A stretch of DNA of 64,000 nucleotides from a virus (lineage: Duplodnaviria > Heunggongvirae > Uroviricota > Caudoviricetes). A model generated the notes under the pieces. That model was not told the origin of the DNA, ran no database searches, and saw nothing but the letters and a program-made list of their open reading frames with translations. Each line of letters opens with the position of its first letter. Positions within the stretch are counted from its first letter, which is position 1. The position numbers were made by a program, and so were the translations under genes. Positions 1-33,996 of this stretch are shown piece by piece. The DNA lies in IMG/VR virus record IMGVR_UViG_3300012007_000011, positions 155 through 64,154 of that record; one strand, written 5' to 3'.

Positions 1-179
1 AAAGTCCGAATAATCATTGTGATTTTGAAAAAGTCTCAAATATTTCTTCATTTTAACTTTAATTTTGTTTAAACAATTATTTTTATCTACAATATAAATA
101 TTGCAATTTTTCTTTAAAAAACATTTGGTAGTTTAATTTTTTTGCACTATCTTTGTAAAAGAACAAGTGAAAGTATAGT

Positions 180-515
180 ATGGCAACAGAATATGAAGGT
201 TTAGAAACGGTCAGTTCATTTTTAGATAAACATCAAGAATTAAGAGATGATATAGTTAATTTGTGGCACATTGAGAAAATATTAACCAACGTACAACTCA
301 GATATCTTTACCTTGTATCATTAATCAGTTCTGACAATATATACGATTTTGAGACTGCTGAAAAGGCAATGGAAAAGATAACTTTTCTCAAACGAAACCT
401 ACATTATCTTAATTTGGATGATGATGTTTTAAAAGAGGTGAAAAGATATATAAACAAAGGTATAAGAATCATTAATAAGGAAATCAAGGAGTATCAAGAT
501 GAAGTTAGAGATTAA
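180..515 (+). CDS. hypothetical protein (111 aa)
   Basis: Long ORF, first in a + strand gene run; 3' end overlaps the next gene. Confidence 0.4.
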   Translation: MATEYEGLETVSSFLDKHQELRDDIVNLWHIEKILTNVQLRYLYLVSLISSDNIYDFETAEKAMEKITFLKRNLHYLNLDDDVLKEVKRYINKGIRIINKEIKEYQDEVRD

Positions 516-954
516 TAACATTCCGTCAAAAAGTAAAAATGTAACGGAAAAAGATAGGGAGATTATAAACCGTGCATTATTTTCATATCAGATTGTATTG
601 GGTCAATATGAGAAATATACAGATGAAATGAAACAAAAGGATTTGGAAAGACTTGCAAAGCAAAATAACCAAAATCCGCTTGATACATTGAATCCGTTTA
701 ATGTTGACCTTACTGAAGAGAAAACATATGAACCAACGTTTGAAGATACAAAGACGTTTGTATATTCCTCTTGGGCAGAAGCAATTGCAAATGTCAAAAC
801 ACCACGTATATGTGATGGCGCAAAGAAAAAAGGTATCAGAAGACAAGCGTTTAGGGACGTACAAAACGGTAAATATCTTACAAAAAAAGTGAGAGACGTT
901 ATGAATGATTTCATAACAAGACTATCAGTTGGTAAAACAGAAAATGAAAAATAA
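499..954 (+). CDS. hypothetical protein (151 aa)
   Basis: ORF coupled to the upstream gene; no recognisable motif. Confidence 0.4.
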   Translation: MKLEINNIPSKSKNVTEKDREIINRALFSYQIVLGQYEKYTDEMKQKDLERLAKQNNQNPLDTLNPFNVDLTEEKTYEPTFEDTKTFVYSSWAEAIANVKTPRICDGAKKKGIRRQAFRDVQNGKYLTKKVRDVMNDFITRLSVGKTENEK

Positions 955-987
955 ATTTATGTTAAATTTTAAAACGTTTTAAAAATT

Positions 988-1464
988 ATGAGAACATTAC
1001 AAGTAACTGGCCACATTGTGGCTGATGCAGAGAAGAAACTTAGCAAAAGCGGTAAGGAATATCTTACATTCAGAATTGCAAACAATGAGTTTAATGACGA
1101 AAAGGGACAGGACGGAAAGCAAAAACCATATTGGATTAGCGTAACGTCACTTAATCAGAGACATTTCAGCATGACTCAGTATCTCACAAAGGGAAAACCC
1201 GTAATTGTCGTAGGTGATTATAGTGACAGAATTTATCAGAACAGAGAAGGAAATTGCGAGATTTCACGTGACATCCTTGCAAATGCTATCTATTTCCTTC
1301 CTGGTAGCGGAGAGAATGGAAACAGTTCTTCAACACCGAAGACAACAGAAACACCATCAGTTCAGACAAAGATGGAAACACCAAAGCCCACAACAGCAGA
1401 AATTAAAGTGCCACCTGTAACAAGTGCTGTAAACAATAGTGACGATGACGATTTGCCATTCTAA
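988..1464 (+). CDS. ssb: single-stranded DNA-binding protein
   Basis: OB-fold-like N-terminal region, Gly/Ser/Pro/Thr-rich linker and acidic C-terminal tail DDDDLPF (SSB tail consensus DDDIPF). Confidence 0.7.
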   Translation: MRTLQVTGHIVADAEKKLSKSGKEYLTFRIANNEFNDEKGQDGKQKPYWISVTSLNQRHFSMTQYLTKGKPVIVVGDYSDRIYQNREGNCEISRDILANAIYFLPGSGENGNSSSTPKTTETPSVQTKMETPKPTTAEIKVPPVTSAVNNSDDDDLPF

Positions 1465-1485
1465 TAGACACATAATGAAATATAA

Positions 1486-1520
1486 AAGGTGATAAACATT
1501 TAATTATCACCTTTTTATTT
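1486..1520. terminator. bidirectional rho-independent terminator
   Basis: AAGGTGATAA..loop..TTATCACCTT hairpin flanked by an A-run and a T-run, between convergent genes. Confidence 0.6.
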
Positions 1521-1526
1521 TGTATT

Positions 1527-2005
1527 TTATTTACCGTTCCATATATAATATGTTTGATAAGTCACATCTTCATTATTAATATTGAAAGTAATTGTAATTA
1601 CCCAATTAGTTGTTTTAGAAATAGTTGATGATAAATTACAGTTCCAGTTAATACCGTCTTCGCTTGTTGCTGATGCAGATTCCTTTAATTCTCCTGGTCC
1701 TAACATATTATCATTTTCATCATATTGTGGATAATGAATACTAATAATTGGATTATTAGCATTTACTGCACCGAGCATTGTCATAGTAAAAGGATTGTCA
1801 AAGAATGTAGTAGAATTACCGGTAATAAAAGGTACATTATAACCGTTTATTTGTGTAATTTTTTGTACCCAAGGATTGTAGTGTACCTCATTCTCAGTGA
1901 TACAGTGTGATACATTAGGTGTTATAAATGGGGTATCTCCCCCCCCCCCCCAATAAACGTTTCGTATTGGGTGTGTTCGTTAAAAAGTTTTAAATAATTT
2001 GCCAT
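1527..2005 (-). CDS. poly-G-interrupted adhesin-like gene (locus A), out of frame in this sequence; conserved 26-aa N-terminal module MANYLKLFNEHTQYETFIGGGG then a stop
   Basis: ATG at 2005 (- strand) opens a frame that runs into a G13 tract (C13 on + strand, 1939..1951) and stops at 1922..1924. The downstream 85-aa ORF (1527..1784) lies in the frame reached by adding 1 G (or removing 2). Paralogous to 11033..11619. Confidence 0.55.
1876..2005 (-). repeat. ~130-bp conserved 5' module shared with 11490..11619
   Basis: About 80-85% nucleotide identity from the ATG through the poly-G tract and ~80 bp beyond; similarity ends where the C-terminal domains diverge. Confidence 0.8.
1939..1951 (-). 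repeat. homopolymeric G13 tract (C13 on + strand) inside the coding sequence
   Basis: Counted directly; encodes the Gly run of FIGGGG; run length is 1 mod 3, which is the OFF state. Confidence 0.9.
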
Positions 2006-2071
2006 TATGTGTTTTTCTATATGAAATTAATTTTATCTTTTTCTATATAAATATCTGAATTTATTTTGAAA

Positions 2072-2095
2072 TTTGGGTGAAATGCACTATATTTG
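2072..2095 (+). promoter_or_regulatory. Bacteroidetes-type promoter (-7 TATATTTG at 2088..2095)
   Basis: TAnnTTTG motif ~35 bp upstream of the ATG at 2132; the nearest upstream TTTG (2072..2075) is only 12 bp away, so the -33 spacing is atypical. Confidence 0.4.
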
Positions 2096-2131
2096 CAACA
2101 AAGAATAACATAATATTTTTTAAATTGATAT

Positions 2132-2740
2132 ATGTTTAAACATAAATGTTATATAAGGAAAAATAATGAATTTCTCCGTGAAACATTAAAGAAATTGGGT
2201 TATAGTGAGTTTGCCCCCAATGATAAAGATACAATAATTGCCACTTTTGACGGACATGATACAAATTATTTTACGACAATAGATAAAGAAAGTATCAATA
2301 ATTTGGGTAATATGTTTATTGATTGCGGTACTTCTGAAACTTTATTCCTTGGTATTGCTTCAATTACGGATGAACATGATAAGTTTCAGTTTTTCACAAC
2401 ATTAGCCGATAGACATTGGTATAATTTGGGAACATATAGTCCAAAGGGTAGTCTTGAATTTTGCATGGTTACGGACAGACATATGGGACAACACCCATTG
2501 TTTGACAATATGACCGTGCCTGCAAAGAAATCAACCATTGAAGAACTTATGGCGAATTTCAAGGACAAGGAAGAGGACACTGAATTTTACAGCAAGATAC
2601 CAAATGAACGATGGAAAAAAGACATATATGACTTTGAATACTATCCACTTACAGAAGAGGAAAAGAAAGAGATAAATGAACTTTTAACCAAAGATGAAAA
2701 CATTGAATGTATATTCAGTTCAGCAAGTACTGAAGATTAA
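2132..2740 (+). CDS. hypothetical protein (202 aa)
   Basis: ORF downstream of the 2072..2095 promoter. Confidence 0.5.
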   Translation: MFKHKCYIRKNNEFLRETLKKLGYSEFAPNDKDTIIATFDGHDTNYFTTIDKESINNLGNMFIDCGTSETLFLGIASITDEHDKFQFFTTLADRHWYNLGTYSPKGSLEFCMVTDRHMGQHPLFDNMTVPAKKSTIEELMANFKDKEEDTEFYSKIPNERWKKDIYDFEYYPLTEEEKKEINELLTKDENIECIFSSASTED

Positions 2741-2814
2741 CTATTTTTAACATTATTTTCTTGGTTTATATAAAAAAATATTATTACTTTTGCAAAGTAA
2801 AATAGAGACAAAAT

Positions 2815-3057
2815 ATGCAGAAGAGGAAAATTGTAAAAGTAACTTATAAAAATGGCAAAGTTGACTATAAGGTAAAAAAGAGAATTTTTCCGTTTATTTG
2901 GATAACGGATTCCTATGACTATTGGTATGGTCCTGGTATTTGTGAAGTCGTATGTAGACATATGACACTGAAACAGGCGGAAAACTACATGGAATGCATT
3001 AGGAAAAAGGAAGATGAGCGGAAAGGTTCAAAAATAATAGAGGAAACTGATTTGTAA
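2815..3057 (+). CDS. hypothetical protein (80 aa)
   Basis: ORF after a TTTGCAAAG promoter-like motif at ~2795. Confidence 0.4.
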   Translation: MQKRKIVKVTYKNGKVDYKVKKRIFPFIWITDSYDYWYGPGICEVVCRHMTLKQAENYMECIRKKEDERKGSKIIEETDL

Positions 3058-3058
3058 T

Positions 3059-3604
3059 ATGGCAAAGATACATTATATCATAGGTGATGCAACACTTCCT
3101 ATTGAGACAGAAGCAGAGAACAGACTAATAGTTCATTGTTGCAATACGCTTGGTGCTTGGGGTGCGGGTTTTGTTGTTCCTCTTGGCAGACGTTATCCAT
3201 TGGCAAAAGAAAAGTATAAGAAGTTCATTGAGGAAAATAAGGGTAAATCCATTTTGGGTGAAGTGAACGAAGTACCTGTTGGGGAACATCTGTATGTTGA
3301 AAACCTTATTGGTCAGAGTTTTCTTTATAAGAAGCCAAATGGTGAAATACCTTGTAATTATATTGCAATTGAAACGGGTTTTCTCAACATAATAAGAAAA
3401 TGGTTTTCATATAACTCAACGATACACAAGGATAAGCAAAACTTTTCAATTCATATGCCACGTATAGGTTGTGGTCTTGCTGGTGGTGATTGGAAAACAA
3501 TTGAAGAAATTATATATAGAACATTCATTGATATTGCCGATGTGGATGTATATGTGTATGATTTAAAGGAACAAAAAGATACCATTTATGATAACAGAGG
3601 ATAA
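3059..3604 (+). CDS. Macro-domain protein (ADP-ribose binding/hydrolase fold)
   Basis: IIGDATLPIETEAENRLIVHCCNTLGAWGAGFV matches the macro-domain core GDIT..DAIVNAAN..L..GGGV; the later GCGLAGG motif matches; 181 aa is the right size. Confidence 0.5.
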   Translation: MAKIHYIIGDATLPIETEAENRLIVHCCNTLGAWGAGFVVPLGRRYPLAKEKYKKFIEENKGKSILGEVNEVPVGEHLYVENLIGQSFLYKKPNGEIPCNYIAIETGFLNIIRKWFSYNSTIHKDKQNFSIHMPRIGCGLAGGDWKTIEEIIYRTFIDIADVDVYVYDLKEQKDTIYDNRG

Positions 3605-3857
3605 GATAAAGGATATAATTCTAACAATGATTGAGAACAACATGTTGGATAGTACACGTATCTTTGACAAAGAATATGTCTTGGAGAGAGTTAATTCATA
3701 TATTAAATCAGCCAACATGGTACGTTCAATGATGAACATGCCACTATTATAAAAAACACAAAAAATATGAAGTTTAAGAAGGCAATGTATATTTTCATAC
3801 TTTTTCTGTTATTGTAATATTTATAATAAAAAGAAATAATATTTTAACATTTAAAGT

Positions 3858-5000
3858 ATGGCAAAAAAATTAACAACTGAAGAGTTTGTACAAAGAGCGA
3901 GAAAGGTACATGGTAATAAATACGATTATTCGAAAGTGGAGTACTTAAATAATAGGACAAAGGTATGTATAATTTGTCCCGAACATGGAGAGTTTTGGCA
4001 AACACCTGATAGTCATATGTCAGGGAATAAATGCCCAAAGTGTTCTGGAACCAAGAAATTAACAACAGAAGAATTTATAGAACAAGCAAGAAAGATTCAT
4101 GGAAATAAATATGATTATTCAAAAGTTGAATATATTAACAATCATAGCAAAGTATGCATCATATGTCCAGAACATGGAGAGTTTTGGCAAACACCAATAA
4201 ACCATTGTTCAAAAAATAATCATAATGGATGTCCAATATGTGCAAAAACAATAATTGGTAATAAATTAAGAAAAAATAATTCATGTTTTATTGAAAAAGC
4301 AAGAGAAGTACATGGTGATAAATATGATTATTCAAAGGTCGAATATATAAATAACAGAACAAAGGTTTGTATAATTTGTCCTAAACATGGAGAGTTTTGG
4401 CAAACACCTGTCAATCATTTAAAAGGTCATAATTGCCCTAAATGTATTGGAAGGGGTGCATATAAATTAACAACAGAAGAGTTTATTGAAAAAGCAAAAC
4501 AAATACATGGTGATAAATATGACTACTCAAAGGTCAAATATGTAAATGCAAAAACCAAAGTTTGTATAATCTGTCCGGAACATGGAGAGTTTTGGCAAAC
4601 ACCAACCAGTCATATTGATGGAAAATGTGGATGTCCAGATTGTAATAAATTATTCAATGAAAAGAAAATAGGCGTTTTTCTAAATGAAAATGGAATTAGA
4701 TATATAAAACAAAAAACATTTAAATGGTTAGGTAAATTAAGGTTGGATTATTATTTAGTAGATTATAATATAGCAATCGAATATCAAGGCGAACAACATT
4801 TTCACTCAGTAAAATATTTTGGTGGTAATAAAAGATTTATTGATAGAATAGAGAGAGATAAAAGAAAAAAAGAATTGTGTGATAAAAATAATGTAAAAAT
4901 ATTATATGTATCGTTTTATAAAAAACCAACATATGATGTTATAAATAATTTTAAAGATTTGTTATATGAAATTCAAAGAAATATTTACAGAAAATTATAG
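3858..5000 (+). CDS. homing-endonuclease-like protein: 4 tandem zinc-ribbon modules plus a Vsr/PD-(D/E)XK-like nuclease C-terminus
   Basis: Four ~48-aa repeats of KYDYSKVEY.NN.TKVCIICPEHGEFWQTP..H..G..CP.C; the C-terminus LDYYLVDYNIAIEYQGEQHF resembles the Vsr/DUF559 nuclease core. Paralogous to 33001..33996. Confidence 0.6.
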   Translation: MAKKLTTEEFVQRARKVHGNKYDYSKVEYLNNRTKVCIICPEHGEFWQTPDSHMSGNKCPKCSGTKKLTTEEFIEQARKIHGNKYDYSKVEYINNHSKVCIICPEHGEFWQTPINHCSKNNHNGCPICAKTIIGNKLRKNNSCFIEKAREVHGDKYDYSKVEYINNRTKVCIICPKHGEFWQTPVNHLKGHNCPKCIGRGAYKLTTEEFIEKAKQIHGDKYDYSKVKYVNAKTKVCIICPEHGEFWQTPTSHIDGKCGCPDCNKLFNEKKIGVFLNENGIRYIKQKTFKWLGKLRLDYYLVDYNIAIEYQGEQHFHSVKYFGGNKRFIDRIERDKRKKELCDKNNVKILYVSFYKKPTYDVINNFKDLLYEIQRNIYRKL

Positions 5001-6375
5001 CGTTAATTGGGATTTCCTATTAACAATATCGCCATTTTCAAAAATGGTTAATTTAGAACAAAACAAGGAGTGGCATAAGGAAGATTGTTGGAAACATACA
5101 GTACTGGTTACACAAGAAATGGAAAAATTACTTAAAAGAAATCTTATTGAGAGAGGTTCTGAGAATTGGGTTATGTGTATGGCTGCTGCCTTGTGTCACG
5201 ATTTGGGAAAGGCTGATACAACCAAATGGTCTGAGGAAAAAAATGATTGGACAACAAAGAATCATGGTGTTGTCGGTGAGAGGATTACACGTCATCTTTT
5301 CTATGATGAAAACATTGTTTTAAGGGAAAAGGTATGTTATATGGTACGTCACCATATGACACTTCATCATGTATATGACAAACCAGAGGAAACAAATAAA
5401 AGGTTGATAAAATTATCACATGGTATTGTTGAAATGAGATTTATGATTTTATTGAACATTGCAGATTCGTTAGGCTCATACAATGATATAGAAACTGAAG
5501 ATAGTATTTATGACAAAGAGATGAAACTTATTAACGATGTAAGTTGTCTGCGTTGTTATCAGAAACCTTATTCTTTTATTGATAAGTCGCAACTGATTAG
5601 GAATTTCATTGACTATACTGGTGAAGTTATAAACGATAGAAATGACTTTTGTGTTTATATTCTTTGTGGTTTTCCTGGTTGTGGTAAAAGTACGTATTAT
5701 AATATGTTTCTTAATTCAAAACCTATTATATCAAGAGATATAATTCGTGGTGAGTTAGGTATTGACGGTGCAACCACAACCAACGACAAAAAAGTTGTTG
5801 GTACAAGGGAAGAGGAAGATAAAGTATCTGAAATTTTTAATAAGAAAATGATTGAATATTGTGAAAATAAGGAAAGTTTTGTTCTTGACAATACTAATCT
5901 TAAATATCAATATCGTAAAGATTATCTGTTAAAAATAATGAAATATAATCCTAAAGTGAAGATTATATATATTGAAGCACCGAATTACATTAAGGACTGT
6001 ATTGACAGAAGAAAGGGTGAGATACCGAAGAGAGTCTATGACAGAATGGAGAATAATTTTGATTTTCCACAATTGTATGAATGTGATGAGTTAACAATTG
6101 TTAAACAAGTGACAATAGAACAAGACAATGTATTTGTGTTTAAAGGCGATTTTACACCTGATTTGATATGTAATACTAATACCGTTAATGGGCGTGATTA
6201 TATATCAAAAGTAAAAGTACTAAATGATTTGTACATAACAAGAGGCGCAATGATATTGGATGGCTATGAATGTTATGACAGTTGTGTCAAATATATGGAT
6301 GAATTAATCAGCACATATAAGAACATGTTTGACTATACCGAACTGTTTGGTGAAATACCCTTAAAAAATGATTAA
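4966..6375 (+). CDS. HD-phosphohydrolase fused to a T4-Pnk-like polynucleotide 5'-kinase
   Basis: N-terminus has H..HD (HTVLV...ALCHDLGKADT) plus further His clusters. C-terminus has Walker A GFPGCGKST, IISRDIIR, and VLDNTNL matching T4 Pnk GCPGSGKST...ISDTNLNPERR. The true start may be the ATG at 5044. Confidence 0.6.
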   Translation: MKFKEIFTENYSVNWDFLLTISPFSKMVNLEQNKEWHKEDCWKHTVLVTQEMEKLLKRNLIERGSENWVMCMAAALCHDLGKADTTKWSEEKNDWTTKNHGVVGERITRHLFYDENIVLREKVCYMVRHHMTLHHVYDKPEETNKRLIKLSHGIVEMRFMILLNIADSLGSYNDIETEDSIYDKEMKLINDVSCLRCYQKPYSFIDKSQLIRNFIDYTGEVINDRNDFCVYILCGFPGCGKSTYYNMFLNSKPIISRDIIRGELGIDGATTTNDKKVVGTREEEDKVSEIFNKKMIEYCENKESFVLDNTNLKYQYRKDYLLKIMKYNPKVKIIYIEAPNYIKDCIDRRKGEIPKRVYDRMENNFDFPQLYECDELTIVKQVTIEQDNVFVFKGDFTPDLICNTNTVNGRDYISKVKVLNDLYITRGAMILDGYECYDSCVKYMDELISTYKNMFDYTELFGEIPLKND

Positions 6376-6378
6376 TAT

Positions 6379-6672
6379 ATGGCTTGGTTTGAAATAAACG
6401 GAAATCGCATTGTAAGCAAAGATTACAACCCTTGGAGTGCGGATAATAGTGCTGTGTGGGGCTTATATATAGGTGGTAGGTGGTGTTTGGACTACACTTG
6501 GAAACTTATGTTTGGTATATCAACTGATGATTGGAATAACAGATGCAGCAACATTAAAACCGACAATGATTTTTACAATTTCTGTGAGTGGTTGGGGGTA
6601 TACTATAAAAAGGATGGTGTCATATATAGATGTGGTGAAAAATATAATGAATATGGTGAAAAGTTAAAATAA
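6379..6672 (+). CDS. hypothetical protein (97 aa, Trp-rich)
   Basis: ORF. Confidence 0.4.
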   Translation: MAWFEINGNRIVSKDYNPWSADNSAVWGLYIGGRWCLDYTWKLMFGISTDDWNNRCSNIKTDNDFYNFCEWLGVYYKKDGVIYRCGEKYNEYGEKLK

Positions 6673-6678
6673 AAAAAA

Positions 6679-6936
6679 ATGAAAGAAGAAAAATATAAAA
6701 GAGCCGTTGAGATAAAAGATAAAATTTACTCATTACAGAAAAACCTTGAAGACTTAAAAGGCGGCCATTGGGACAAAACCCGTATCGAACTTAAAACAGG
6801 TTATTCCGACATGGGAATGGATTTTACGGTTTCAACAACATTTGACGAGGAAATTGGATATAAAATTCGTGATTTTATAAATGACACGATTAACAGTAAA
6901 ATTGCTGAATTGGAAAATGAGTTTGAAAATTTATAG
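6679..6936 (+). CDS. hypothetical protein (85 aa, coiled-coil)
   Basis: ORF. Confidence 0.4.
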   Translation: MKEEKYKRAVEIKDKIYSLQKNLEDLKGGHWDKTRIELKTGYSDMGMDFTVSTTFDEEIGYKIRDFINDTINSKIAELENEFENL

Positions 6937-6943
6937 GTATTTT

Positions 6944-7783
6944 ATGGAAAAGATAGAAAAATGGATACCACAAGTGGGTGATACTGTTAGGTTAAAAGGT
7001 ACTGAAAAGCCATTGTATCATTTATGTGGAATAACAAATTATGGTATGTTTTCATTTGTACAAGAAATGGAAAATGGTATTGCTGGTGGTGAGGTTTCTG
7101 AATATAGTTTACTTAGGAACTATGAACTTGTGGAACGCCCACAAAAATTAGAGGATTTCTTAAATGATATGATAACAAAGCCAATTTTGGAAAATATGAA
7201 TAAAACAAGATTTGAAAAATTTGGGAATGTGATGATAGATTTGGAAACACTATCAACGCACAACAATGCTGCCATTATAGAGATTGGTGCTGTTGAGTTT
7301 AATAAATATACGGGTGAGGTTGGCGAGAAGTTCAATGTAATTATTGACCCAAAGGATTGGTGTAAAAATGATAGACACGTTGACGGTGAAACAATTCAGT
7401 GGTGGTTTAACCAGACAAATGAAGCAAGAAAAAGATTTACACGCAAAAATAATGCGTATGTTACACTTAAGCAAGCGTTATGGCAATTGAGATATTTCAT
7501 TATGGATTGTGACACTGTTGATGATGATAAAGATGTTGTTGTATGGGGAAACGGTGCAACAATGGACATTAGCATATTAGAAAGTGCATTCAATTATTTC
7601 GACATAGAAGTACCTTGGAAATTTTGGGCAGTGAATGATGTAAGAACTATTGTTGACCTTAATCCGTCAATTAAGAAGAATTGTGAATTTGATTGTGGTG
7701 TTCGGCATAGTGCTATTGCTGATTGTCTCTATCAGATAAAATATACAACAGATACCATAAAATCATTAAAACTGAAATCATGA
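6944..7783 (+). CDS. DEDDh-family 3'-5' exonuclease (DnaQ-like)
   Basis: MIDLETLS (Exo I D.E), a conserved acidic motif, and HSAIADC (Exo III H...D). Start taken at the first ATG after the upstream stop. Confidence 0.65.
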   Translation: MEKIEKWIPQVGDTVRLKGTEKPLYHLCGITNYGMFSFVQEMENGIAGGEVSEYSLLRNYELVERPQKLEDFLNDMITKPILENMNKTRFEKFGNVMIDLETLSTHNNAAIIEIGAVEFNKYTGEVGEKFNVIIDPKDWCKNDRHVDGETIQWWFNQTNEARKRFTRKNNAYVTLKQALWQLRYFIMDCDTVDDDKDVVVWGNGATMDISILESAFNYFDIEVPWKFWAVNDVRTIVDLNPSIKKNCEFDCGVRHSAIADCLYQIKYTTDTIKSLKLKS

Positions 7784-8430
7784 CATTAAAAGACTTGAAG
7801 CCATTTATTGAGAAGTTGGGGGAATATGATAAGATTTGTATTTTCGATAAAAAAGAAGGCTTTCTTATTGATACAATATATATTAACCCTATTGACAATA
7901 AACTTTATGAATATATTAGTATTTTTTATCAACATAAAGTTGACTATGATAAAACTCCTTATTTTTTAAGGAATTATAAATATGAGGATGTTGAAATAAA
8001 GATATTATCAATGAAAGAATGGTGTGCATTTGTGCGGAAACGTAATTATGATTCATTTATGGAAGCATTAAATGATACAAAAGGAATATACTTTTGGAGA
8101 AATGGTATGAATAACGCTAAATTAATATACAATCAGATTATTACAGACCAAGGAAAATTTGTGTCATTTGGTTTGTTTAAAAACGATGAAGACGAAAAAT
8201 ATAAGGGTGTCCTTTTATCGGTATGCGCAAGTGACGAGGATTATTATTATGTGTATTTAAAGGAAGATAATACTATAGGTCTAATGACTTGTGTCGGTTG
8301 CTATAAAGTAACAGACGAGAATTACCAAACAAAGATATCTGATAAAGAAATAGCAAAAATGTTAAGTGATAAATTTGATTCTGACACAAGTTTGGACGCA
8401 TTGATATATCGTGGAAAATACTCCATTTAA
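7780..8430 (+). CDS. hypothetical protein (~216 aa)
   Basis: ORF with an ATGA overlap onto the exonuclease gene. Confidence 0.45.
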   Translation: MTLKDLKPFIEKLGEYDKICIFDKKEGFLIDTIYINPIDNKLYEYISIFYQHKVDYDKTPYFLRNYKYEDVEIKILSMKEWCAFVRKRNYDSFMEALNDTKGIYFWRNGMNNAKLIYNQIITDQGKFVSFGLFKNDEDEKYKGVLLSVCASDEDYYYVYLKEDNTIGLMTCVGCYKVTDENYQTKISDKEIAKMLSDKFDSDTSLDALIYRGKYSI

Positions 8431-8449
8431 GTATTTTTAACATAAAGTA

Positions 8450-8481
8450 TTTGGTTAATGCAAATAAAAATATTAGTTTTG
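8450..8481 (+). promoter_or_regulatory. Bacteroidetes sigma-A type promoter (TTTG-N20-TAGTTTTG)
   Basis: -33 TTTG at 8450..8453, -7 TAnnTTTG at 8474..8481; part of the conserved TTTTTAAC..ATTTGG module. Confidence 0.6.
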
Positions 8482-8518
8482 TAAATGTAAAATAACTTTG
8501 AATAAAATTTGAATAACT

Positions 8519-8770
8519 ATGGGAATTTTTAATAAAAAGAAAGTAGAAAATGTAATATCTGTTGAGGGTTATGCAGATGATTTATATGAAATAAGTAAGA
8601 ATGGCGAGATGAAACAGACAAGATTGTTCTATGTAATTCCTGAGAATCTTGAAGAGAATCAAGAAACAATGGACTTATGTATTACTTCGACTAATCCATA
8701 TCATTCGTTTCCGATTTTTGATAATCTATTGGGTAAGAAAATTAGAATTACAGTTGACATTATTGATTAA
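8519..8770 (+). CDS. hypothetical protein (83 aa)
   Basis: ORF after the promoter. Confidence 0.45.
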   Translation: MGIFNKKKVENVISVEGYADDLYEISKNGEMKQTRLFYVIPENLEENQETMDLCITSTNPYHSFPIFDNLLGKKIRITVDIID

Positions 8771-8800
8771 ACAGAACTATTTATAGACAGTATCAAAAAA

Positions 8801-9658
8801 ATGAACAAGAAAAAATTGATAGACATTTTTAATATTGATAAACCCAACATTTGTTTTGTTGGTGATATACATGGTGAATTTAATTCACTGCAAGGTTTAA
8901 TGAAGAAAACAAATTTCAAAGATACTGCCTATATTGTGTGTGGTGATATTGGTTTTGGCTTTAATAAGAAAGAATATTATTCCAAAATCTTCAATAAACT
9001 GACAAAAACAGCCTCCAAACTTAATTGTGAATTTATTTTTATTAGGGGTAATCACGATGATAAGAAATATTTTGACAAACGTTTAATCAACAGAAAATGT
9101 TTTAAGACAATTCCTGATTATTCCGTCATACAGACACCTTTATATAATGTATTGTGTATTGGTGGTGCAATTTCAATTGACAGAACATATAGAAAATTGG
9201 TTTTAAAGGAAAATGCTTTGAAATATTCTATTTATCATGGTTGCACTCCCAATGAAGCTGAGAAGTTATGTCAGCAAGTATATTGGGATGATGAACCTTG
9301 TTACTATGATGAAGAGAAATTAACGCAATTAAAACTAAATAACATAAACATTGATATTGTTTGTACCCATACATGTCCGTCATTCACAAAACCCTTTGGA
9401 AAAGAAAATATTGGCTATTGGTTATCCAAAGATGAAAGCCTTGAACGTGATATTGACAATGAGCGTGAGGTAATGGATAAGGTTTATAATAAACTTAAAA
9501 CAGACGGTCACACCCTTGATATGTGGTTCTATGGACATTTTCATTATCATAACGTGCAATTTGTTGATAAGACTAAATTTGTAATGCTTGATATGTATCG
9601 TAACGGAAACTATGACATTTATGATGTTTACAATACAAAAGAAACTATTTATAATTGA
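8801..9658 (+). CDS. calcineurin-like metallophosphoesterase
   Basis: GDIHG, GDIGFG and GNHDD motifs in canonical order. Confidence 0.6.
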   Translation: MNKKKLIDIFNIDKPNICFVGDIHGEFNSLQGLMKKTNFKDTAYIVCGDIGFGFNKKEYYSKIFNKLTKTASKLNCEFIFIRGNHDDKKYFDKRLINRKCFKTIPDYSVIQTPLYNVLCIGGAISIDRTYRKLVLKENALKYSIYHGCTPNEAEKLCQQVYWDDEPCYYDEEKLTQLKLNNINIDIVCTHTCPSFTKPFGKENIGYWLSKDESLERDIDNEREVMDKVYNKLKTDGHTLDMWFYGHFHYHNVQFVDKTKFVMLDMYRNGNYDIYDVYNTKETIYN

Positions 9659-9687
9659 TATAATGTATTAATATTTGTTGTAAAATC

Positions 9688-10170
9688 ATGAAACAAACAA
9701 TAAGATTAACAGAATCAGAACTTAGAAATCTGATTACTAAGACAGTAAAAAGAGTTTTAAAAGAAAATAAAATAAATGAAGTAAGTGGTTGGACGCTTGA
9801 AAAAGATGATGTTACATGGGTAAATGATGCGGAAAGTGGTGCTTCTGATAAGGCTTGGATGGTAAGACTTTGGCCAGGTAGTGGCTATATTCTTCCTGCA
9901 TTTGGCGCATATGCTTCTTCAGAAGAAGATGCCCTTGAAAAAGTTGTAGCATATCTTGACCAAGAAGGTGATGATAGTTTCTTCTGTGACGATTATATCG
10001 ACCAAATGAGAGAGGAATTGGCAGAAGAAGGTAAAAACGAAGAGGAAATAAACGAAGAAATACAAGCAATGTTTTGTTATGTTGATGCAACAATGGATGG
10101 TGGTGAATGTCATTATGTATTTTGGGAAAATTTGAGTGTTTATCCATATGATGAAAAAAGGTTTAGGTAA
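9688..10170 (+). CDS. hypothetical protein with a conserved N-terminal I.L.ESEL.N.I..TVK.VL.E motif
   Basis: N-terminal 30 aa paralogous to 13173..13511; acidic C-terminal half. Confidence 0.45.
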   Translation: MKQTIRLTESELRNLITKTVKRVLKENKINEVSGWTLEKDDVTWVNDAESGASDKAWMVRLWPGSGYILPAFGAYASSEEDALEKVVAYLDQEGDDSFFCDDYIDQMREELAEEGKNEEEINEEIQAMFCYVDATMDGGECHYVFWENLSVYPYDEKRFR

Positions 10171-10195
10171 AACAAAATAAATAAAAAGTTAATTT

Positions 10196-11017
10196 ATGCA
10201 AATTAATAACAATTGTGAGATTTATAATGGTGACTGCATAGAAGTAATGCAGGAAATAATAGATAAAGGTGTTAAGGTGGATTTGACTGTTACAAGTCCA
10301 CCTTATGATAACCTTAGAAGTTATGAAAATGAAGTGACGTGGGATTTTGAGAAATTTAAGGATGTGGCTAACAAACTATATGAAATAACTGCTGATGGTG
10401 GTGTTGTTATATGGGTTGTAAATGACCAAGTAAGAAATGGTTCTGAGACAGGTACTTCATTTAAACAAGCACTTTATTTCATGGAAATTGGTTTCAGATT
10501 GCATGATACGATGATTTTTCAAAAAGCAAACTATATTCCTTTGACACATAACAGATATGAACAGTCATTTGAATATATGTTTTGTTTCTCAAAAGGTAAA
10601 CCAAAGACATTTAATCCCATTATGATTCCTTGTAAAAACGCAGGAAAGGTTGAAAGTTATGGTAATGAAAGACGTTCATTGTTAGACAAGAAGCAAGCGA
10701 TGAGAGCACCTGAGGGTAAAACTTTTATGAAGACAAAAGACACCAAGTATCACCCTAATATTTTTACATATACACTTGGTGGTCAAAAAACAGGACACCC
10801 TGCTGTGTTTCCTGACAAGTTGGCAGAAGACCAAATAATAACTTGGTCAAATGAAAATGATTTGGTTTTTGACCCATTTATGGGAAGTGGAACAACTGGT
10901 AAAATGGCAATAATAAATAATAGAAGATTTATTGGTGTTGAACTTGTAAAAGACTATTATGATATTTCAGTCAGAAGAATTGAAAATGAAACACAAATAG
11001 AAAAAGCAGCCTTTTGA
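10196..11017 (+). CDS. DNA methyltransferase (beta-class N6A/N4C; motif IV SPPY before motif I)
   Basis: TVTSPPYDN (motif IV) and VFDPFMGSGTTG (motif I) near the C-terminus; paralogous to 20184..20984. Confidence 0.7.
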   Translation: MQINNNCEIYNGDCIEVMQEIIDKGVKVDLTVTSPPYDNLRSYENEVTWDFEKFKDVANKLYEITADGGVVIWVVNDQVRNGSETGTSFKQALYFMEIGFRLHDTMIFQKANYIPLTHNRYEQSFEYMFCFSKGKPKTFNPIMIPCKNAGKVESYGNERRSLLDKKQAMRAPEGKTFMKTKDTKYHPNIFTYTLGGQKTGHPAVFPDKLAEDQIITWSNENDLVFDPFMGSGTTGKMAIINNRRFIGVELVKDYYDISVRRIENETQIEKAAF

Positions 11018-11031
11018 GACTGCTTTTTTAT
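11005..11031. terminator. weak bidirectional terminator
   Basis: AGCAG..CTGCT stem followed by a T-run between convergent genes; imperfect. Confidence 0.3.
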
Positions 11032-11032
11032 T

Positions 11033-11619
11033 TTATTTTTCCCATCTAAATGCTTGATTATTATAAGAATATATTGTATCTACAATATCACTATTCAAAG
11101 AATTGTTATTACAGTCAGCAAACGCATAGTCAGCAATTGTTGTAATAGAATCTGGTATATTAATTGTTTCTAAATTATCACAAAATCCGAAAGCATAACT
11201 TTCAATAGTGGTGACAGCATTATCAAGTGTAACTGATACAAATGCACAGTCACTAAAAGCCTTTCGGCCGATGACTGTGGGGTTTTTTAATGTGTATCTA
11301 ACAGTATGTTCACCAACAGACAACTGATATTCACCATACACTCTATCAAGGTCAGCAATTGACACCTCAACACCATCAACCTCAATTTTTTTAAATAATG
11401 AAGTAGGCGATACATTGCCATATAATTTTGTTGGAGAAGTTGCATCCTCTACATTAAATATAGCAATAACAGGTCCGGGTAGAACAATTGGGTTATAATG
11501 TACATCATTTTCCTCAATGCAATGTGACACGTTAGGTTTTATGAATGGGGTGTCTCCCCCCCCCCAATAAACGTTTCGTATTGGGTATGGTTTTCAAAAA
11601 GTTTTAAATATTTAGGCAT
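11033..11619 (-). CDS. poly-G-interrupted BspA-type leucine-rich-repeat adhesin-like gene (locus B), out of frame in this sequence
   Basis: ATG at 11619 gives MPKYLKLFENHTQYETFIGGG, then a G10 tract (C10 at 11556..11565), then a stop. Adding 1 G joins it to the 165-aa ORF 11033..11530. That ORF carries LRR units (IGRKAFSDCAFVSVTL / IESYAFGFCDNLETINIPDSITTIADYAFADC). Confidence 0.55.
11490..11619 (-). repeat. ~130-bp conserved 5' module shared with 1876..2005
   Basis: See locus A. Confidence 0.8.
11556..11565 (-). repeat. homopolymeric G10 tract (C10 on + strand) inside the coding sequence
   Basis: Counted directly; same phase (1 mod 3) as the locus A tract. Confidence 0.9.
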
Positions 11620-11795: not shown

Positions 11796-11894
11796 CAAAC
11801 AGAGGAAAGATTTGGGGCATATTGCAACCTCTTTAAAAATGCTAAAAAGTCCCATTTAATAAATTATTTGTTTAACTTTTTAAATATTGATTAA

Positions 11895-13079
11895 ATGGTA
11901 AAAAGAATTAGTGAGAATGGAAACAAACTCATTGCAAGCGAGTTTGTTAGTTTTGGACATCCCGACAAGATTGCTGACCAAATTGCTGATGCAATTGTTG
12001 ATAATTTTTTGGCACGTGATAAAAATGCACGTACAGGAATTGAAGTCTTGGTTAAGGATAATATTGTTGTCCTTGGTGGTGAGGTTAATTCAACAGCAAG
12101 TTTCGATTATGAAAAAATTGTTCGTTTTGTTTTTTCTGAACTTAATTTTCCGTCAAATCATCATTTGTCACCGGATGAAATTAAAATTATTAACTTGATT
12201 GGAAAACAGTCAGAGGAAATACATAGTGGTGTTGACAAGGTAGATGAAATTGGGGCAGGGGACCAGGGATTCATGGTTGGCTACGCTACAAATGAAACAA
12301 GTGTATATATGCCTCTTGGACATTACATTGCTAAGAAAATCTGTAATTATGTTGCAAATTGTAGTCAATTGGGTCCTGATACTAAATCACAAGTTATTAT
12401 AGAATATGATAGTAATAACAAGGCAATAGGTATTCATAGCATTCTTGTTTCCACTATGCACCAATGTTCTCTTGAAGTGTGTCGTGAACGTGTAACTAAC
12501 GCAATTATGAATAATTTGGTTGGTATTGATAAGGATATCTATGAAAAATTCATAAAGGATAAAAATGTTAGAGTTGATGTAAATCCTTGTGGTTCTTGGC
12601 AAATTGGCGGTCCGATTTCTGATTGTGGAATTACAGGACGAAAATTGGTGGTAGATTCCTATGGTGGTTATTGTAACGTTGGTGGTGGCAATTACAGTGG
12701 TAAGGATTTCTCAAAGGTTGACCGTTCAGGTGCATATATGGCACGTTATCTTGCAAAGAACATTGTTGCAAGTGGCTTCTGTGATACTTGCCGTGTTACC
12801 TTGTCGTATATGATTGGTGTTGCACAACCTTGTTCCGTTGAAATTGATGTCAATCGTAATTTTGACAAACTTCCACAATTGAAAAAATGGATTTTGGAGA
12901 ATATTGATTTAACTCCAAATGGAATTACAGAAAGATTGCGTCATGGTGTGCTTTTATATGATTGTTCAAAATACGGACATTTCGGTTTTAAAGACAAAAA
13001 AGACAAAGATGTAATAACACTTCAAGAAAGAAAGTGGGAAAATCTTGACCTTGTTGAAGACTTGAAACAATTTGTATAA
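11895..13079 (+). CDS. metK: S-adenosylmethionine synthetase
   Basis: EFVSFGHPDKIADQIADAIVD matches MetK ESVSEGHPDKIADQISDA; GAGDQGFMVGYA matches MetK GAGDQGLMFGYA; 394 aa. Confidence 0.85.
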   Translation: MVKRISENGNKLIASEFVSFGHPDKIADQIADAIVDNFLARDKNARTGIEVLVKDNIVVLGGEVNSTASFDYEKIVRFVFSELNFPSNHHLSPDEIKIINLIGKQSEEIHSGVDKVDEIGAGDQGFMVGYATNETSVYMPLGHYIAKKICNYVANCSQLGPDTKSQVIIEYDSNNKAIGIHSILVSTMHQCSLEVCRERVTNAIMNNLVGIDKDIYEKFIKDKNVRVDVNPCGSWQIGGPISDCGITGRKLVVDSYGGYCNVGGGNYSGKDFSKVDRSGAYMARYLAKNIVASGFCDTCRVTLSYMIGVAQPCSVEIDVNRNFDKLPQLKKWILENIDLTPNGITERLRHGVLLYDCSKYGHFGFKDKKDKDVITLQERKWENLDLVEDLKQFV

Positions 13080-13172: not shown

Positions 13173-13511
13173 ATGGGAAAAATAGTGCATTTGAATGAAA
13201 GTGAATTGAAAAATATTATAGATGAAACAGTAAAAAAAGTGTTAAGTGAAGGAAAAACAAATTCATTTATTAATGAGGTTCGTAATTTCAATTCCATAAT
13301 AGATAAAACAAACAAGACCTTAAATGAAAGCAGCATTAACAGAATGTTGCAATGGCTGAAAAATTGTGACTGTGCTTTCATTAGTGCATTCAGGAATGAA
13401 TTGAAAGATGTTAGAGACATGAATGCGACTTATCTTGGACCTGACAATGAAAATCCGTGGCAATTGGAAAAGAATTTACCCATGAGGAAAATCGTCAGAA
13501 AAATAAGTTAA
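13173..13511 (+). CDS. hypothetical protein sharing the N-terminal motif with 9688..10170
   Basis: MGKIVHLNESELKNIIDETVKKVLSEGK versus MKQTIRLTESELRNLITKTVKRVLKENK. Confidence 0.45.
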   Translation: MGKIVHLNESELKNIIDETVKKVLSEGKTNSFINEVRNFNSIIDKTNKTLNESSINRMLQWLKNCDCAFISAFRNELKDVRDMNATYLGPDNENPWQLEKNLPMRKIVRKIS

Positions 13512-16537: not shown

Positions 16538-16543
16538 TATTTT

Positions 16544-32986: not shown

Positions 32987-33021
32987 AAGATGGTGGACTA
33001 TTAGTGTATTCCACCATCTTT
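32987..33021. terminator. bidirectional terminator hairpin overlapping the 3' end of the - strand gene
   Basis: AAAGATGGTGGA..loop..TCCACCATCTTT. Confidence 0.4.
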
Positions 33022-33996
33022 CTTGTATTTAATGTCATATAACATTTCGTTTAAATCTGCATAATATGTGTGTTTATTTTTAAAAGTAGTTGGTACATTT
33101 TGGTCAGTGAAATAAAAAACATCAATACCATGTTCTTTGCATTGTTTAAATTTTAATTCATCTCGTTCTATTAATTCGTTAAATGTAAATATTTTTGTTT
33201 CTGTTGAAATGTTTGAAGAAAATGACGTTGCTTGAAAATGTTGTATTCCTTGACATTCAATTGCACTGTTATATTCCGGTAAATAAAAATCTAATTTCAT
33301 ATTAGTTTTATTTTTTAACCATTTAAACGTCTTTTCTTCAATAAAATATATTTTATTCTCTGACAAAAAATTAGATAAATATTTTTCAAGTTTTGATTTT
33401 TGACACTTTGGACAACCATTTCCTTGTAAATGTTTGTCTGGTGTTTGCCAAAACTCACCATGTTCTGGACATATGATACATACCTTTGTTTTGTTATTAA
33501 TATAATTTACGTTAGAATAATCATACAGGTTGTTATGTATATATTTTGCTTTCTCTATAAAAGTATTATTGTTTGAGGCTAATTTTTGTTTGTATTTTAT
33601 TTTTCCACATTCAGGACATCCGCAACCTCTGATATGTGAATTTGCTTCTTGCCAAAATTCACCATGTTCTGGACATATGATACAAACCTTTTTAGTGTTA
33701 TCAATATAGATTGTCTTAGAATAATCGTATTTGTTATTATGCACCCTTTGTGCTTCTTTAATAAAATCTTCATTTGTTTTGGTTAAACGCTTTTTATGGT
33801 TTTCGTATTTACATTTTCTACATCCTTTACCACTTAAATGGCAATTTGGCGTTTGCCAAAACTCTCCGTGTTCGGGACATATGATGCACACCTTTGTTTT
33901 ATTGTTAACATATTCCACCTTTGAATAATCATACTTGTCACCATGTACTTTTCTTGCATGTTCTATAAATTCCTCTGTTGTTACTCTTTGTTGCAT
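33001..33996 (-). CDS. homing-endonuclease-like protein: 3 zinc-ribbon modules plus a Vsr/PD-(D/E)XK-like C-terminus (paralogue of 3858..5000)
   Basis: The same repeat signature (YDYSKVEY.NN.TKVCIICPEHGEFWQ..H..G.GC..C) three times, and a C-terminal LDFYLPEYNSAIECQGIQHF. Start taken at the ATG at 33996 (the track start is a GTG at 34002). Confidence 0.6.
   Translation of the reverse strand: MQQRVTTEEFIEHARKVHGDKYDYSKVEYVNNKTKVCIICPEHGEFWQTPNCHLSGKGCRKCKYENHKKRLTKTNEDFIKEAQRVHNNKYDYSKTIYIDNTKKVCIICPEHGEFWQEANSHIRGCGCPECGKIKYKQKLASNNNTFIEKAKYIHNNLYDYSNVNYINNKTKVCIICPEHGEFWQTPDKHLQGNGCPKCQKSKLEKYLSNFLSENKIYFIEEKTFKWLKNKTNMKLDFYLPEYNSAIECQGIQHFQATSFSSNISTETKIFTFNELIERDELKFKQCKEHGIDVFYFTDQNVPTTFKNKHTYYADLNEMLYDIKYKKDGGIH

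What the first reader, a model, noticed from the sequence alone, without database searches (positions are those of the whole stretch)
11033..11619. Second poly-G (G10) interrupted gene encoding a BspA-type leucine-rich-repeat domain, in the same phase as locus A
The architecture is paralogous to locus A. The conserved leader MPKYLKLFENHTQYETFIGGG is followed by G10 (C10 at 11556..11565) and a stop. Adding 1 G yields a ~195-aa protein whose C-terminus is a BspA/Treponema-type LRR (AFSDCAFVSVTL, AFGFCDNLETINIPDSITTIADYAFADC). LRRs of this type are cell-surface or host-binding modules in Bacteroidetes. Both loci are out of frame by exactly the same amount (need +1 G). That argues for a shared mechanism rather than two independent sequencing errors. 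The mechanism could be slippage-dependent expression or a synchronised OFF state.
Basis: seen in the sequence. Interest (0 to 1): 0.75.

Follow-up and report, generated by a model that had tools for sequence, protein, structure and literature searches.

The report
Poly-G on/off switch in phage adhesin gene
A giant gut phage carries a run of ten G's inside a small leucine-rich-repeat "sticky protein" gene; the run changes length between otherwise identical phage populations and so switches the gene on or off, a bet-hedging trick previously shown experimentally only in Campylobacter phages.

Summary
On the minus strand, ATG 11619 opens a conserved leader that runs into G10 (11556..11565). The frame breaks, and +1 G (or -2 G) gives a 195-aa protein with a BspA-type LRR_5 C-terminus (E = 3.5e-17). 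The tract is not chance: only two G/C runs of 6 or more exist in 64 kb, both in this gene family, and GGG is the rarest Gly codon (5.5%).

At orthologous loci in other metagenomes, the tract is G10, G11 or G12 with 0-1 mismatch in 595 flanking nt. All three reading phases are about equally frequent (about 26, 23 and 30 contigs). A 97.5%-identical strain carries G11, in frame. No frameshift-stimulating RNA structure is present.

Best explanation: a hypermutable contingency tract (replication slippage) that switches an adhesin-like protein ON or OFF, and it is OFF in this assembly. The conserved 41-aa N-module defines a large unannotated family (2,278 clusters) fused mostly to LRR_5. In related ~368-kb phages, which resemble Jug phages, a paralogue is a DGR target.

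This is a new member of a known kind (Fletchervirus poly-G receptor-binding proteins). The protein's function and within-population switching are inferred.

The parts
11033..11619 (-). Locus B: complete phase-variable gene (leader + G10 + body). It gives a 195-aa protein when the tract is G11 and is OFF as assembled.
   Evidence: An ON orthologue, P0122 (195 aa), was found in another sample.
11539..11619 (-). Leader ORF as assembled (MPKYLKLFENHTQYETFIGGGETPHS*). It encodes the first half of the conserved N-module (strand 5-8, helix 11-21).
11556..11565 (-). Poly-G tract (G10 on the coding strand, C10 on the + strand). It encodes the Gly linker. In-frame lengths are G8, G11 and G14.
   Evidence: The linker falls in the low-pLDDT loop of the model.
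11489..11554 (-). Second half of the conserved N-module (DTPFIKPNVSHCIEENDVHYNP), in the frame reached by +1 G.
11045..11278 (-). BspA-type leucine-rich repeat domain (LRR_5, residues 115-192 of the repaired protein).
11001..11028 (-). Terminator-like hairpin immediately after the stop codon, shared with the convergent methyltransferase gene.
1527..2005 (-). Locus A: a paralogue with the same leader and N-module and a different, unannotated C-terminal domain. OFF as assembled.
1939..1951 (-). Poly-G tract of locus A (G13; needs +1/-2).
1..51 (-). N-terminus of a third family member (MKKYLRLFQNHNDYSDF...), cut by the window edge. Its orthologue in related phages is a DGR target.

Best explanation
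Locus B is a simple-sequence-repeat contingency gene of a jumbo gut phage. A homopolymeric G tract sits in the flexible Gly linker of a conserved 41-aa N-terminal module. Slipped-strand mispairing during phage DNA replication adds or removes G's. Lengths of 3n+2 (G8, G11, G14) translate the full 195-aa protein (N-module, small beta domain, BspA-type LRR). Other lengths stop after a 26-aa leader peptide. Each family gene switches independently, so a phage population is a mixture of ON/OFF combinations of small adhesin-like proteins. In the assembled window both tract-bearing genes (A and B) are OFF.

Shown here: the tract is real and selected. Its length is the fastest-changing character between near-identical genomes. 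ON and both OFF phases coexist across samples. The product is an LRR_5 protein.

Inferred: the mutational mechanism, by analogy with established poly-G phase variation. That the proteins are virion- or host-surface-binding adhesins, based on the LRR_5, Lcl_C, SpaA and Big_2 partners and on a DGR-targeted paralogue. That the benefit is bet-hedging against the phase-variable surfaces of Bacteroidales hosts.
For: (1) Tract selection. These are the only two G/C runs of 6 or more in 64 kb, and both are in this family. GGG is 5.5% of Gly codons and is not used in the other Gly triplets. A tract occurs at the same linker position in divergent leaders (L009, L011, L019).

(2) Hypermutability. The orthologous locus has G10, G11 or G12 with 0-1 mismatch in 595 flanking nt, including within single study series. 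The neighbouring family gene has G9, G11, G12 or G15.

(3) ON and OFF states at population level. In cluster 2 there are about 26 contigs with full-length calls, about 23 with alternative-frame starts and about 30 with starts after the tract. In cluster 4, G9 is on 45 contigs, G12 on 5 and G11 (ON) on 2. Cluster 1 (locus B itself) holds 165-aa OFF forms and a 195-aa ON form.

(4) L034, 97.5% identical to locus B, has G11 in frame. L035, a second assembly 100% identical over 3.5 kb, reproduces G10.

(5) Independent switching: all four ON/OFF combinations of two adjacent genes are seen.

(6) The linker tolerates length change. The Gly run lies in the low-confidence loop between helix 11-21 and strand 31-34. 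Homologues have 2-5 Gly at this position.

(7) Decayed, interrupted tracts exist: L032 (G9AGG) is still out of frame, while L048 (GGGGAGGGAG) and P0081 (GGWG) read through.

(8) Binding-protein context. Of 104 diverse family representatives, 49 carry LRR_5 and single members carry SpaA, Lcl_C or Big_2. A paralogue is a DGR target with a textbook A-mutagenised VR/TR pair and an RT gene.

(9) Precedent: Fletchervirus phages use poly-G tracts for phase-variable receptor-binding proteins (Sorensen et al. 2021, Cell Rep 35:109214, as described in PMC11959909 and PMC12823448).
Against: No read-level data were available, so heterogeneity within one phage population and reversibility are not shown. 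Assembly consensus lengths of G9-G15 runs can be wrong by one or more bases, and L049 shows a garbled G/C junction. Contig counts are not independent events, because phage strains are shared between samples. The ON state is not favoured (about one third at one locus and about 4% at another), which also fits dispensable or decaying genes. Nothing shows that the protein is in the virion: the genes sit among replication and nucleotide-metabolism genes, and the N-module has no structural or sequence match to a known virion-anchor domain.
Confidence: 0.68

Rival explanations
1. Programmed recoding. The out-of-frame tract is the functional state, and full-length protein is made by -1 ribosomal frameshifting on G GGG GGG or by RNA-polymerase slippage on the C-template run. 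The DNA length would then matter little.
For: Both window loci need the same +1 nt. A run of G's is formally a slippery sequence, and long homopolymers can provoke transcriptional slippage (general knowledge). Out-of-frame states are common across samples.
Against: Orthologous loci occur in all three phases and in frame, whereas programmed sites conserve one out-of-frame arrangement. There is no significant structure in the 90 nt downstream (z = +0.86, +0.51, +0.54, -1.25). From my own knowledge, transcriptional slippage is well documented for A/T runs and much less for G/C runs. It could still make OFF states leaky, so it may be a complement rather than an alternative.
Confidence: 0.12
2. Homopolymer sequencing or assembly error. 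The true tract in this phage is in frame (G11), and the frame break is an artefact of consensus calling on a long G run.
For: Long G runs are error-prone for short-read chemistry and PCR (general knowledge). L049 shows an obviously garbled G11-T-G20-C13 junction at the same family position. The closest distinct strain has G11.
Against: A second assembly record (L035, ENA) is 100% identical over 3,498 nt and also has G10, and P0121, the same OFF call, is on 2 contigs. Within single study series, different samples give G10, G11 and G12. G9 is reproduced on 45 contigs. Even if this particular length were wrong, the tract and its variability remain.
Confidence: 0.12
3. Decaying pseudogenes. The family members are dispensable cargo, and the frame breaks are ordinary inactivating mutations at a mutation-prone site with no adaptive switching.
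For: ON is not enriched over OFF. The genes are isolated opposite-strand units among unrelated genes.
Against: The bodies downstream of the tract remain fully open and are 0-1 mismatch from ON alleles. The tract is maintained against strong codon bias in many paralogues and lineages. The family is large and its N-module is highly conserved. A paralogue is actively diversified by a DGR.
Confidence: 0.05

Closest known systems
Poly-G phase-variable receptor-binding proteins of Campylobacter Fletchervirus phages (Sorensen et al. 2021, Cell Rep 35:109214)
   Same: A phage-encoded gene for a binding-type protein carries an intragenic G tract of about 9-13 nt whose length sets the reading frame, giving ON and OFF subpopulations. 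The host group also has phase-variable surface structures (Campylobacter capsule there; Bacteroides capsules by DNA inversion, Porter et al. 2020, as cited in PMC12823448).
   Different: There is no sequence similarity (tblastn against 50,697 phage records gave no match). The phage is a jumbo gut phage of about 360 kb associated with Bacteroidales, not a Campylobacter myovirus. The tract sits in a conserved N-terminal linker shared by a multigene family rather than in individual RBP genes. A virion location and receptor binding are not demonstrated. The host itself is not known for poly-G phase variation.
Bacterial simple-sequence contingency loci (Campylobacter, Neisseria, Haemophilus, Helicobacter poly-G/C tracts in surface-structure genes)
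   Same: A homopolymer lies early in the ORF, frame-dependent truncation occurs, tract length is polymorphic on identical backgrounds, and several loci switch independently.
   Different: The tract is encoded by a virus, and the replication slippage would involve the phage's own replisome. The switching rate is unknown.
Diversity-generating retroelements targeting phage receptor-binding proteins (Bordetella phage BPP-1 Mtd)
   Same: Both give programmed diversification of a ligand-binding protein. In related phages a paralogue with the same N-module is a bona fide DGR target (VR/TR with adenine-specific differences and an RT gene).
   Different: Locus B itself shows no VR-type hypervariability (0-1 mismatch in 595 nt between samples). 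It is regulated ON/OFF and is not sequence-diversified.
BspA / TpLRR-type leucine-rich-repeat surface proteins (Pfam LRR_5; PDB 4fs7, 4gt6, 6mlx)
   Same: The C-terminal domain is a member by HMM and by predicted fold.
   Different: It is much shorter (about 3 repeats), has no signal peptide or cell-anchor region, and is fused to a phage-specific N-module.

Membership tests
Simple-sequence-repeat (homopolymer) phase-variable contingency locus | Homopolymeric tract of about 7 nt or more inside the coding region | tested here: met
   G10 at 11556..11565, 54 nt after the ATG.
Simple-sequence-repeat (homopolymer) phase-variable contingency locus | Tract length determines full-length versus truncated product | tested here: met
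   G10 gives a 26-aa peptide and G8 or G11 gives 194 or 195 aa. The matching ON protein P0122 exists.
Simple-sequence-repeat (homopolymer) phase-variable contingency locus | Tract over-represented relative to composition and codon usage | tested here: met
   Only 2 runs of 6 or more in 64 kb, both in the family. GGG is 5.5% of Gly codons.
Simple-sequence-repeat (homopolymer) phase-variable contingency locus | Length polymorphism among otherwise near-identical genomes | tested here: met
   G10, G11 and G12 with 0-1 mismatch in 595 nt. G9, G11 and G12 forms at the locus A position.
Simple-sequence-repeat (homopolymer) phase-variable contingency locus | High-frequency, reversible switching within one clonal population | not testable with these tools
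   This needs reads or culture. Only assembly consensus sequences are available.
Fletchervirus-type phase-variable phage receptor-binding protein | Encoded by a phage genome | tested here: met
   Relatives lie on 355-393-kb contigs with phage-type gene content and in IMG/VR viral contigs. Only 3 MAG contigs match among 185,579 species genomes.
Fletchervirus-type phase-variable phage receptor-binding protein | Product is a virion receptor-binding protein | not testable with these tools
   There is only indirect support: adhesin-type domains and a DGR-targeted paralogue. The N-module has no match to known virion domains.
Fletchervirus-type phase-variable phage receptor-binding protein | Sequence homology to the Campylobacter phage RBPs | tested here: not met
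   tblastn of the N-module plus middle domain against 50,697 phage records gave no match.
BspA-type LRR (Pfam PF13306 LRR_5) | HMM score above the gathering threshold | tested here: met
   62.9 bits against a 27.7 cut-off, E = 3.5e-17, residues 115-192.
BspA-type LRR (Pfam PF13306 LRR_5) | LRR solenoid fold similar to solved BspA/TpLRR structures | tested here: met
Programmed -1 ribosomal frameshift / transcriptional slippage site | Out-of-frame arrangement conserved among homologues | tested here: not met
   All three phases, including in-frame, occur at orthologous loci.
Programmed -1 ribosomal frameshift / transcriptional slippage site | Stimulatory RNA structure 5-9 nt downstream of the slippery run | tested here: not met
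   Folding z-scores are +0.86, +0.51, +0.54 and -1.25 for four loci.
Programmed -1 ribosomal frameshift / transcriptional slippage site | Frameshifted product detected | not testable with these tools
   This needs proteomics, ribosome profiling or RNA-seq.
DGR target gene | Variable region with an adenine-mutagenised template repeat and a nearby RT gene | tested here: not met
   Not met for locus B: its body is 0-1 mismatch in 595 nt across samples. It is met for the paralogue in relatives: L024 VR 15425-15612, TR 16420-16607, RT 16663-17838.

The most novel reading that the evidence does not exclude
Jumbo gut phages of Bacteroidales carry a large, undescribed cassette family. A 41-aa N-terminal module, possibly a virion anchor, is fused to interchangeable adhesin domains. 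The phage diversifies the family in two orthogonal ways: stochastic ON/OFF switching through poly-G tracts placed in the module's linker, and DGR mutagenesis of a paralogue's binding site. The conserved leader may also serve as a recombination handle for swapping C-terminal domains, given the different C-termini at syntenic positions and the L034 junction. This would give each virion one of many surface or host-range repertoires. It would make phage phase variation a general strategy in the human gut rather than a Campylobacter-phage curiosity.
Probability: 0.4. Interest if true: 0.75.

Novelty: new member of a known kind. Interest (0 to 1): 0.58.

Why it matters
A 2025 review still calls the Campylobacter Fletchervirus case "an exceptional case" of phage-encoded phase variation (PMC11959909). 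This locus gives a second, unrelated and very abundant system. Its relatives resemble the Jug phages, which were reported as about 1.1% of human gut metagenome reads (PMC12880540), and that paper does not mention the tracts, the family or the DGR.

If the switching is real, it affects three things. First, gene calling and pseudogene counts in huge-phage catalogues, because many database entries here are alternative-frame or truncated calls. Second, how these phages coexist with Bacteroides hosts whose surfaces are themselves phase-variable. Third, how host range should be predicted.

It is directly testable from existing read sets.

Tried and rejected
(1) Exact DNA pattern scans for the leader or tract flanks in IMG/VR found nothing. 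The single metagenome scan found only 2 loci. The informative data came from exact-protein cluster look-ups and contig fetches instead.

(2) Megablast of 3.2 kb and of 24 kb of the window, and tblastn of the N-terminal 114 aa, against 50,697 GenBank phage records gave no relevant match. The phage therefore could not be named from deposited genomes. The Jug-phage assignment rests on contig size, GC, habitat and genetic code only.

(3) PHROGs and Pfam give nothing for the N-module or for locus A's C-terminal domain. PDB sequence and fold searches match only the LRR part, so the N-module's role is unresolved.

(4) A suspected fourth family member at 53329..54519 (-) was rejected (hhalign probability 2.5%, no Pfam).

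(5) The palindrome TTGTTTAAACAA, found upstream of many family genes in relatives, occurs once in the window (65..76, upstream of the third paralogue). It is absent upstream of loci A and B and is not enriched over chance, so it is not a defining feature.

(6) The Sorensen 2021 paper is not held in the library. Its content is cited through papers that describe it.

(7) The Jug paper's supplementary tables are not held.

(8) The contig counts for the three phases were partly ascertained by my choice of proteins. The cluster-member counts and the unselected neighbour gene are the less biased figures.

Full report
**1. The observation**

The minus strand of 11033..11619 reads as the first-stage reader described. 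ATG at 11619 opens MPKYLKLFENHTQYETFI, then ten G's follow (C10 on the + strand at 11556..11565). In that frame the sequence continues GGGETPHS and stops. One extra G (G11) or two fewer (G8) joins this leader to the 165-aa ORF 11033..11530 listed mechanically. The product is 195 or 194 aa.

Locus A is equally real: ATG 2005, G13 at 1939..1951, stop at 1527, also needing +1 or -2. A third family N-terminus (MKKYLRLFQNHNDYSDF) runs off the window at 51..1.

In the assembled state neither A nor B has a start codon that could bring the N-module into the body frame. Both are genuinely OFF unless some recoding occurs.

**2. Not chance**

The window is 31.7% GC. Apart from these two tracts, the longest G or C run in 64 kb is 5. 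My own zero-order arithmetic expects about 0.002 runs of 10 or more.

GGG is the rarest glycine codon in the window's ORFs (49 of 886, 5.5%). The five other Gly-Gly-Gly stretches are all encoded with GGT, GGC or GGA. The tract is therefore maintained against codon preference.

Both loci are single minus-strand genes embedded in a plus-strand array. Each is followed directly by a terminator-like hairpin.

**3. The family**

A search with the repaired protein found many full-length, in-frame relatives. They share a roughly 41-45-aa N-terminal module (M-x-K-Y-L-K-L-F-x-x-H-x-x-Y-E-x-F, a linker, then P-N-V-S-H-C-I-x-E-N-E-V-H-Y-N-P) followed by different C-terminal domains.

A profile of the module alone finds 2,278 representative clusters (50% identity) at E <= 1e-3 and 723 at E <= 1e-10 among 1.84 billion proteins. 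The match is almost always at residues 1-41.

Of 104 diverse representatives, 49 carry LRR_5. The only other recognisable domains are also adhesin-type: other LRR classes, SpaA, Lcl_C and Big_2.

The module has no Pfam, PHROGs, PDB-sequence or fold match. About half of the close relatives (46 of 98) have three or more Gly in the linker. The others have sequences such as TQTEDF or TASTEF.

In the model, the Gly run lies in the low-confidence loop between helix 11-21 and strand 31-34. A linker of 3, 4 or 5 Gly should therefore be tolerated.

**4. The phage**

Relatives sit on contigs of 355-393 kb from gut metagenomes and on IMG/VR viral contigs. L024-L030 are syntenic with window 1..11000. Only three contigs in 185,579 bacterial and archaeal species genomes carry the module, and all three are MAG contigs, two of them Bacteroidales.

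Size, GC, habitat and standard code fit the recently described Jug phages: 360-402 kb, about 30% GC, T4-like, predicted hosts Bacteroides/Phocaeicola (PMC12880540). That paper does not mention homopolymers, DGRs or LRR proteins. I could not verify membership by sequence, because GenBank phage records give no match.

**5. Tract behaviour in relatives, the decisive evidence**

Cluster look-ups by exact sequence show that proteins identical downstream of the tract carry three kinds of N-terminus.

- **Cluster 2 (locus B orthologue in the ~368-kb phages, 85% identical).** Full-length MRKYLKLFNTHAEYTAYLGGGEMIL... is on about 26 contigs. The alternative-frame start MPSIQHTWGG(G)EMIL... is on about 23. 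Calls starting after the tract, MILPNVSHC..., are on about 30.
- **DNA confirmation.** The fetched DNA has G11, G12 and G10 respectively. There are 0-1 mismatches in 595 flanking nt, and different lengths occur within single study accession series.
- **The neighbour gene.** The divergently transcribed neighbour is another family member, with G9, G11, G12 or G15. The two genes show all four ON/OFF combinations.
- **Cluster 4 (locus A position).** The G9 form is on 45 contigs and G12 on 5. The G11 full-length protein that I predicted exists exactly, on 2 contigs.
- **Cluster 1 (locus B itself).** It contains 165-aa OFF calls and a 195-aa ON protein. L034, 97.5% identical, has G11 in frame. L035, a second assembly 100% identical over 3,498 nt, has G10.
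- **More distant viral relatives.** They carry G10-G11 at the same linker position in different leader sequences, in frame or not (L009, L011, L019).
- **Decayed tracts.** Interrupted tracts occur: L032 G9AGG (still out of frame), L048 GGGGAGGGAG and P0081 GGWG (both read through).

**6. Interpretation**

Tract length is by far the fastest-changing character of these genes. It samples all three phases. In-frame alleles encode the intact protein, and out-of-frame alleles keep a perfectly open body.

That is the signature of a hypermutable simple-sequence contingency locus. It is the mechanism shown experimentally for poly-G tracts in the receptor-binding proteins of Campylobacter Fletchervirus phages (Sorensen et al. 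2021, described in PMC11959909 and PMC12823448).

It does not survive. A fixed out-of-frame configuration is not conserved, there is no downstream RNA structure, and two loci sharing an OFF phase is expected about two times in nine. Leaky expression through transcriptional or ribosomal slippage on such a long run cannot be excluded, and I keep it as a minor rival. So do homopolymer consensus error for this particular assembly and plain pseudogenisation.

**7. Functional inference**

The C-terminal partners of the module are adhesin-type. In the ~368-kb relatives, the orthologue of the window's third paralogue (N-module plus an Lcl_C/FISUMP-like domain) is a textbook DGR target:

- a 188-nt VR/TR pair at 88% identity, whose differences fall at TR adenines;
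- VR sequences that differ between samples;
- an RT gene about 1 kb downstream.

DGR targets in phages are classically receptor-binding proteins (established knowledge, BPP-1 Mtd). I therefore infer, but have not shown, that family members are ligand-binding proteins displayed by the virion or acting on the host surface. I also infer that ON/OFF switching creates mixed populations as a hedge against the phase-variable surfaces of Bacteroidales.

Against this: the genes lie among replication and nucleotide-metabolism genes, the N-module has no known anchor homology, and ON is not enriched in bulk populations.

**8. Novelty and score**

The mechanism is of a known kind, while the phage group, the protein family and the placement of the tract in a shared modular linker are new. 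So is the coexistence with a DGR on a paralogue. I found no description of any of this in the searchable literature. I rate it a new member of a known kind, with interest 0.58.

Noticed in passing
window 11796..11855 (+): Rfam SAM-II long-loop riboswitch (RF01726; 46.4 bits against a gathering score of 44; E = 1.1e-5) lies immediately upstream of a phage-encoded S-adenosylmethionine synthetase gene (metK, 11895..13079). It sits in the same intergenic region as locus B's upstream sequence. A phage riboswitch controlling a phage metK would be unusual.
   Followed up: no
L024 14776..17838 (orthologue of the window gene cut at 51..1): A complete DGR in related ~368-kb phages: the target is a 295-aa family member, VR is 15425-15612, TR is 16420-16607 (88% identity, with differences at TR adenines), a 183-aa ORF follows, and the RT gene is at 16663-17838. 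The VR differs among L024-L027. The window's own DGR, if present, would lie just beyond its left edge.
   Followed up: partly
L024 15646..15657 (also L025-L028): A further G12 tract (G11 at a contig end in L028) lies about 40 nt 3' of the end of VR/TR homology, in the last codons of the DGR target, and is flanked by CCCC on both sides. It changes only the last few residues. It may be part of the DGR target-recognition hairpin rather than a phase switch. The N-terminal tracts of the DTPF subfamily are also followed by N5-CCCC (G...G AGAYA CCCC).
   Followed up: no
L034 (ENA ERZ28655252 scaffold_35705), 1..2381: The contig joins the 202-aa gene and locus A-type upstream region (94.6% identical to window 3038..1873) to locus B's body and the methyltransferase (97.5% identical to 11614..10272), with G11 in frame. 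This could be a leader-to-leader recombination (duplication or circle junction), a different gene order in that strain, or an assembly chimera at the shared repeat.
   Followed up: partly
L024 10001..10591 versus window 1527..2005: At the syntenic position (between the 202-aa gene and SSB), related phages carry the same leader fused to an LRR_5 body, whereas the window has an unrelated, unannotated body. This is C-terminal domain swapping behind a conserved leader.
   Followed up: partly
L018 and L021 (IMG/VR), leader codon 13: An in-frame TAG sits where family members have Gln (HTQYE), which suggests TAG-to-Gln recoding in those relatives. The window itself reads well in code 11.
   Followed up: no
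L004 and L022 (IMG/VR), linker before PNVS: An in-frame TAA sits where relatives have TTA (RQN*ILPNVS), in the same linker region where other members carry the poly-G tract. Cause unknown.
   Followed up: no
L049 2456..2500 (Christensenellaceae MAG contig): A garbled G11-T-G20-C13 stretch lies directly before a family PNVSHC motif. This is probably an assembly artefact caused by a poly-G tract.
   Followed up: no
L024 11282..14312 versus L025: IS605-type OrfB/TnpB (Cas12f-like TNB) genes sit next to the family gene. One copy is present in L024, L026 and L028 and absent in L025 and L027, so transposon content varies between near-identical phages.
   Followed up: no
window 65..76; also L031-L046 upstream of family genes: The perfect palindrome TTGTTTAAACAA lies about 20 nt upstream of the ATG of many family genes in relatives and of the window's third paralogue. 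It is absent upstream of loci A and B, and it is not enriched in the window (1 match against 2.0 expected).
   Followed up: partly
L024 ~10000 and L036 ~630: In some relatives an OFF phase brings an internal leader ATG into frame with the body (MKHLLGGGDTPF... with G9; MPSIQHTWGGGEM... with G12). Two of the three phases could then yield near-full-length proteins with different N-termini. The window's loci lack such ATGs.
   Followed up: partly
window 9688..10170 (+) and 13173..13511 (+): Two small proteins share a paralogous N-terminus (MKQTIRLTESELRNLITKTVKRVLKE / MGKIVHLNESELKNIIDETVKKVLSE). This is another small multigene family of unknown function.
   Followed up: no
window 3858..5000 (+) and 33001..33996 (-): Proteins built of repeated 'KYDYSKVEY...KVCIICPEHGEFWQTP' zinc-ribbon-like units, reminiscent of homing-endonuclease-associated domains. 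This would fit the intron- and endonuclease-rich genomes reported for Jug phages.
   Followed up: no
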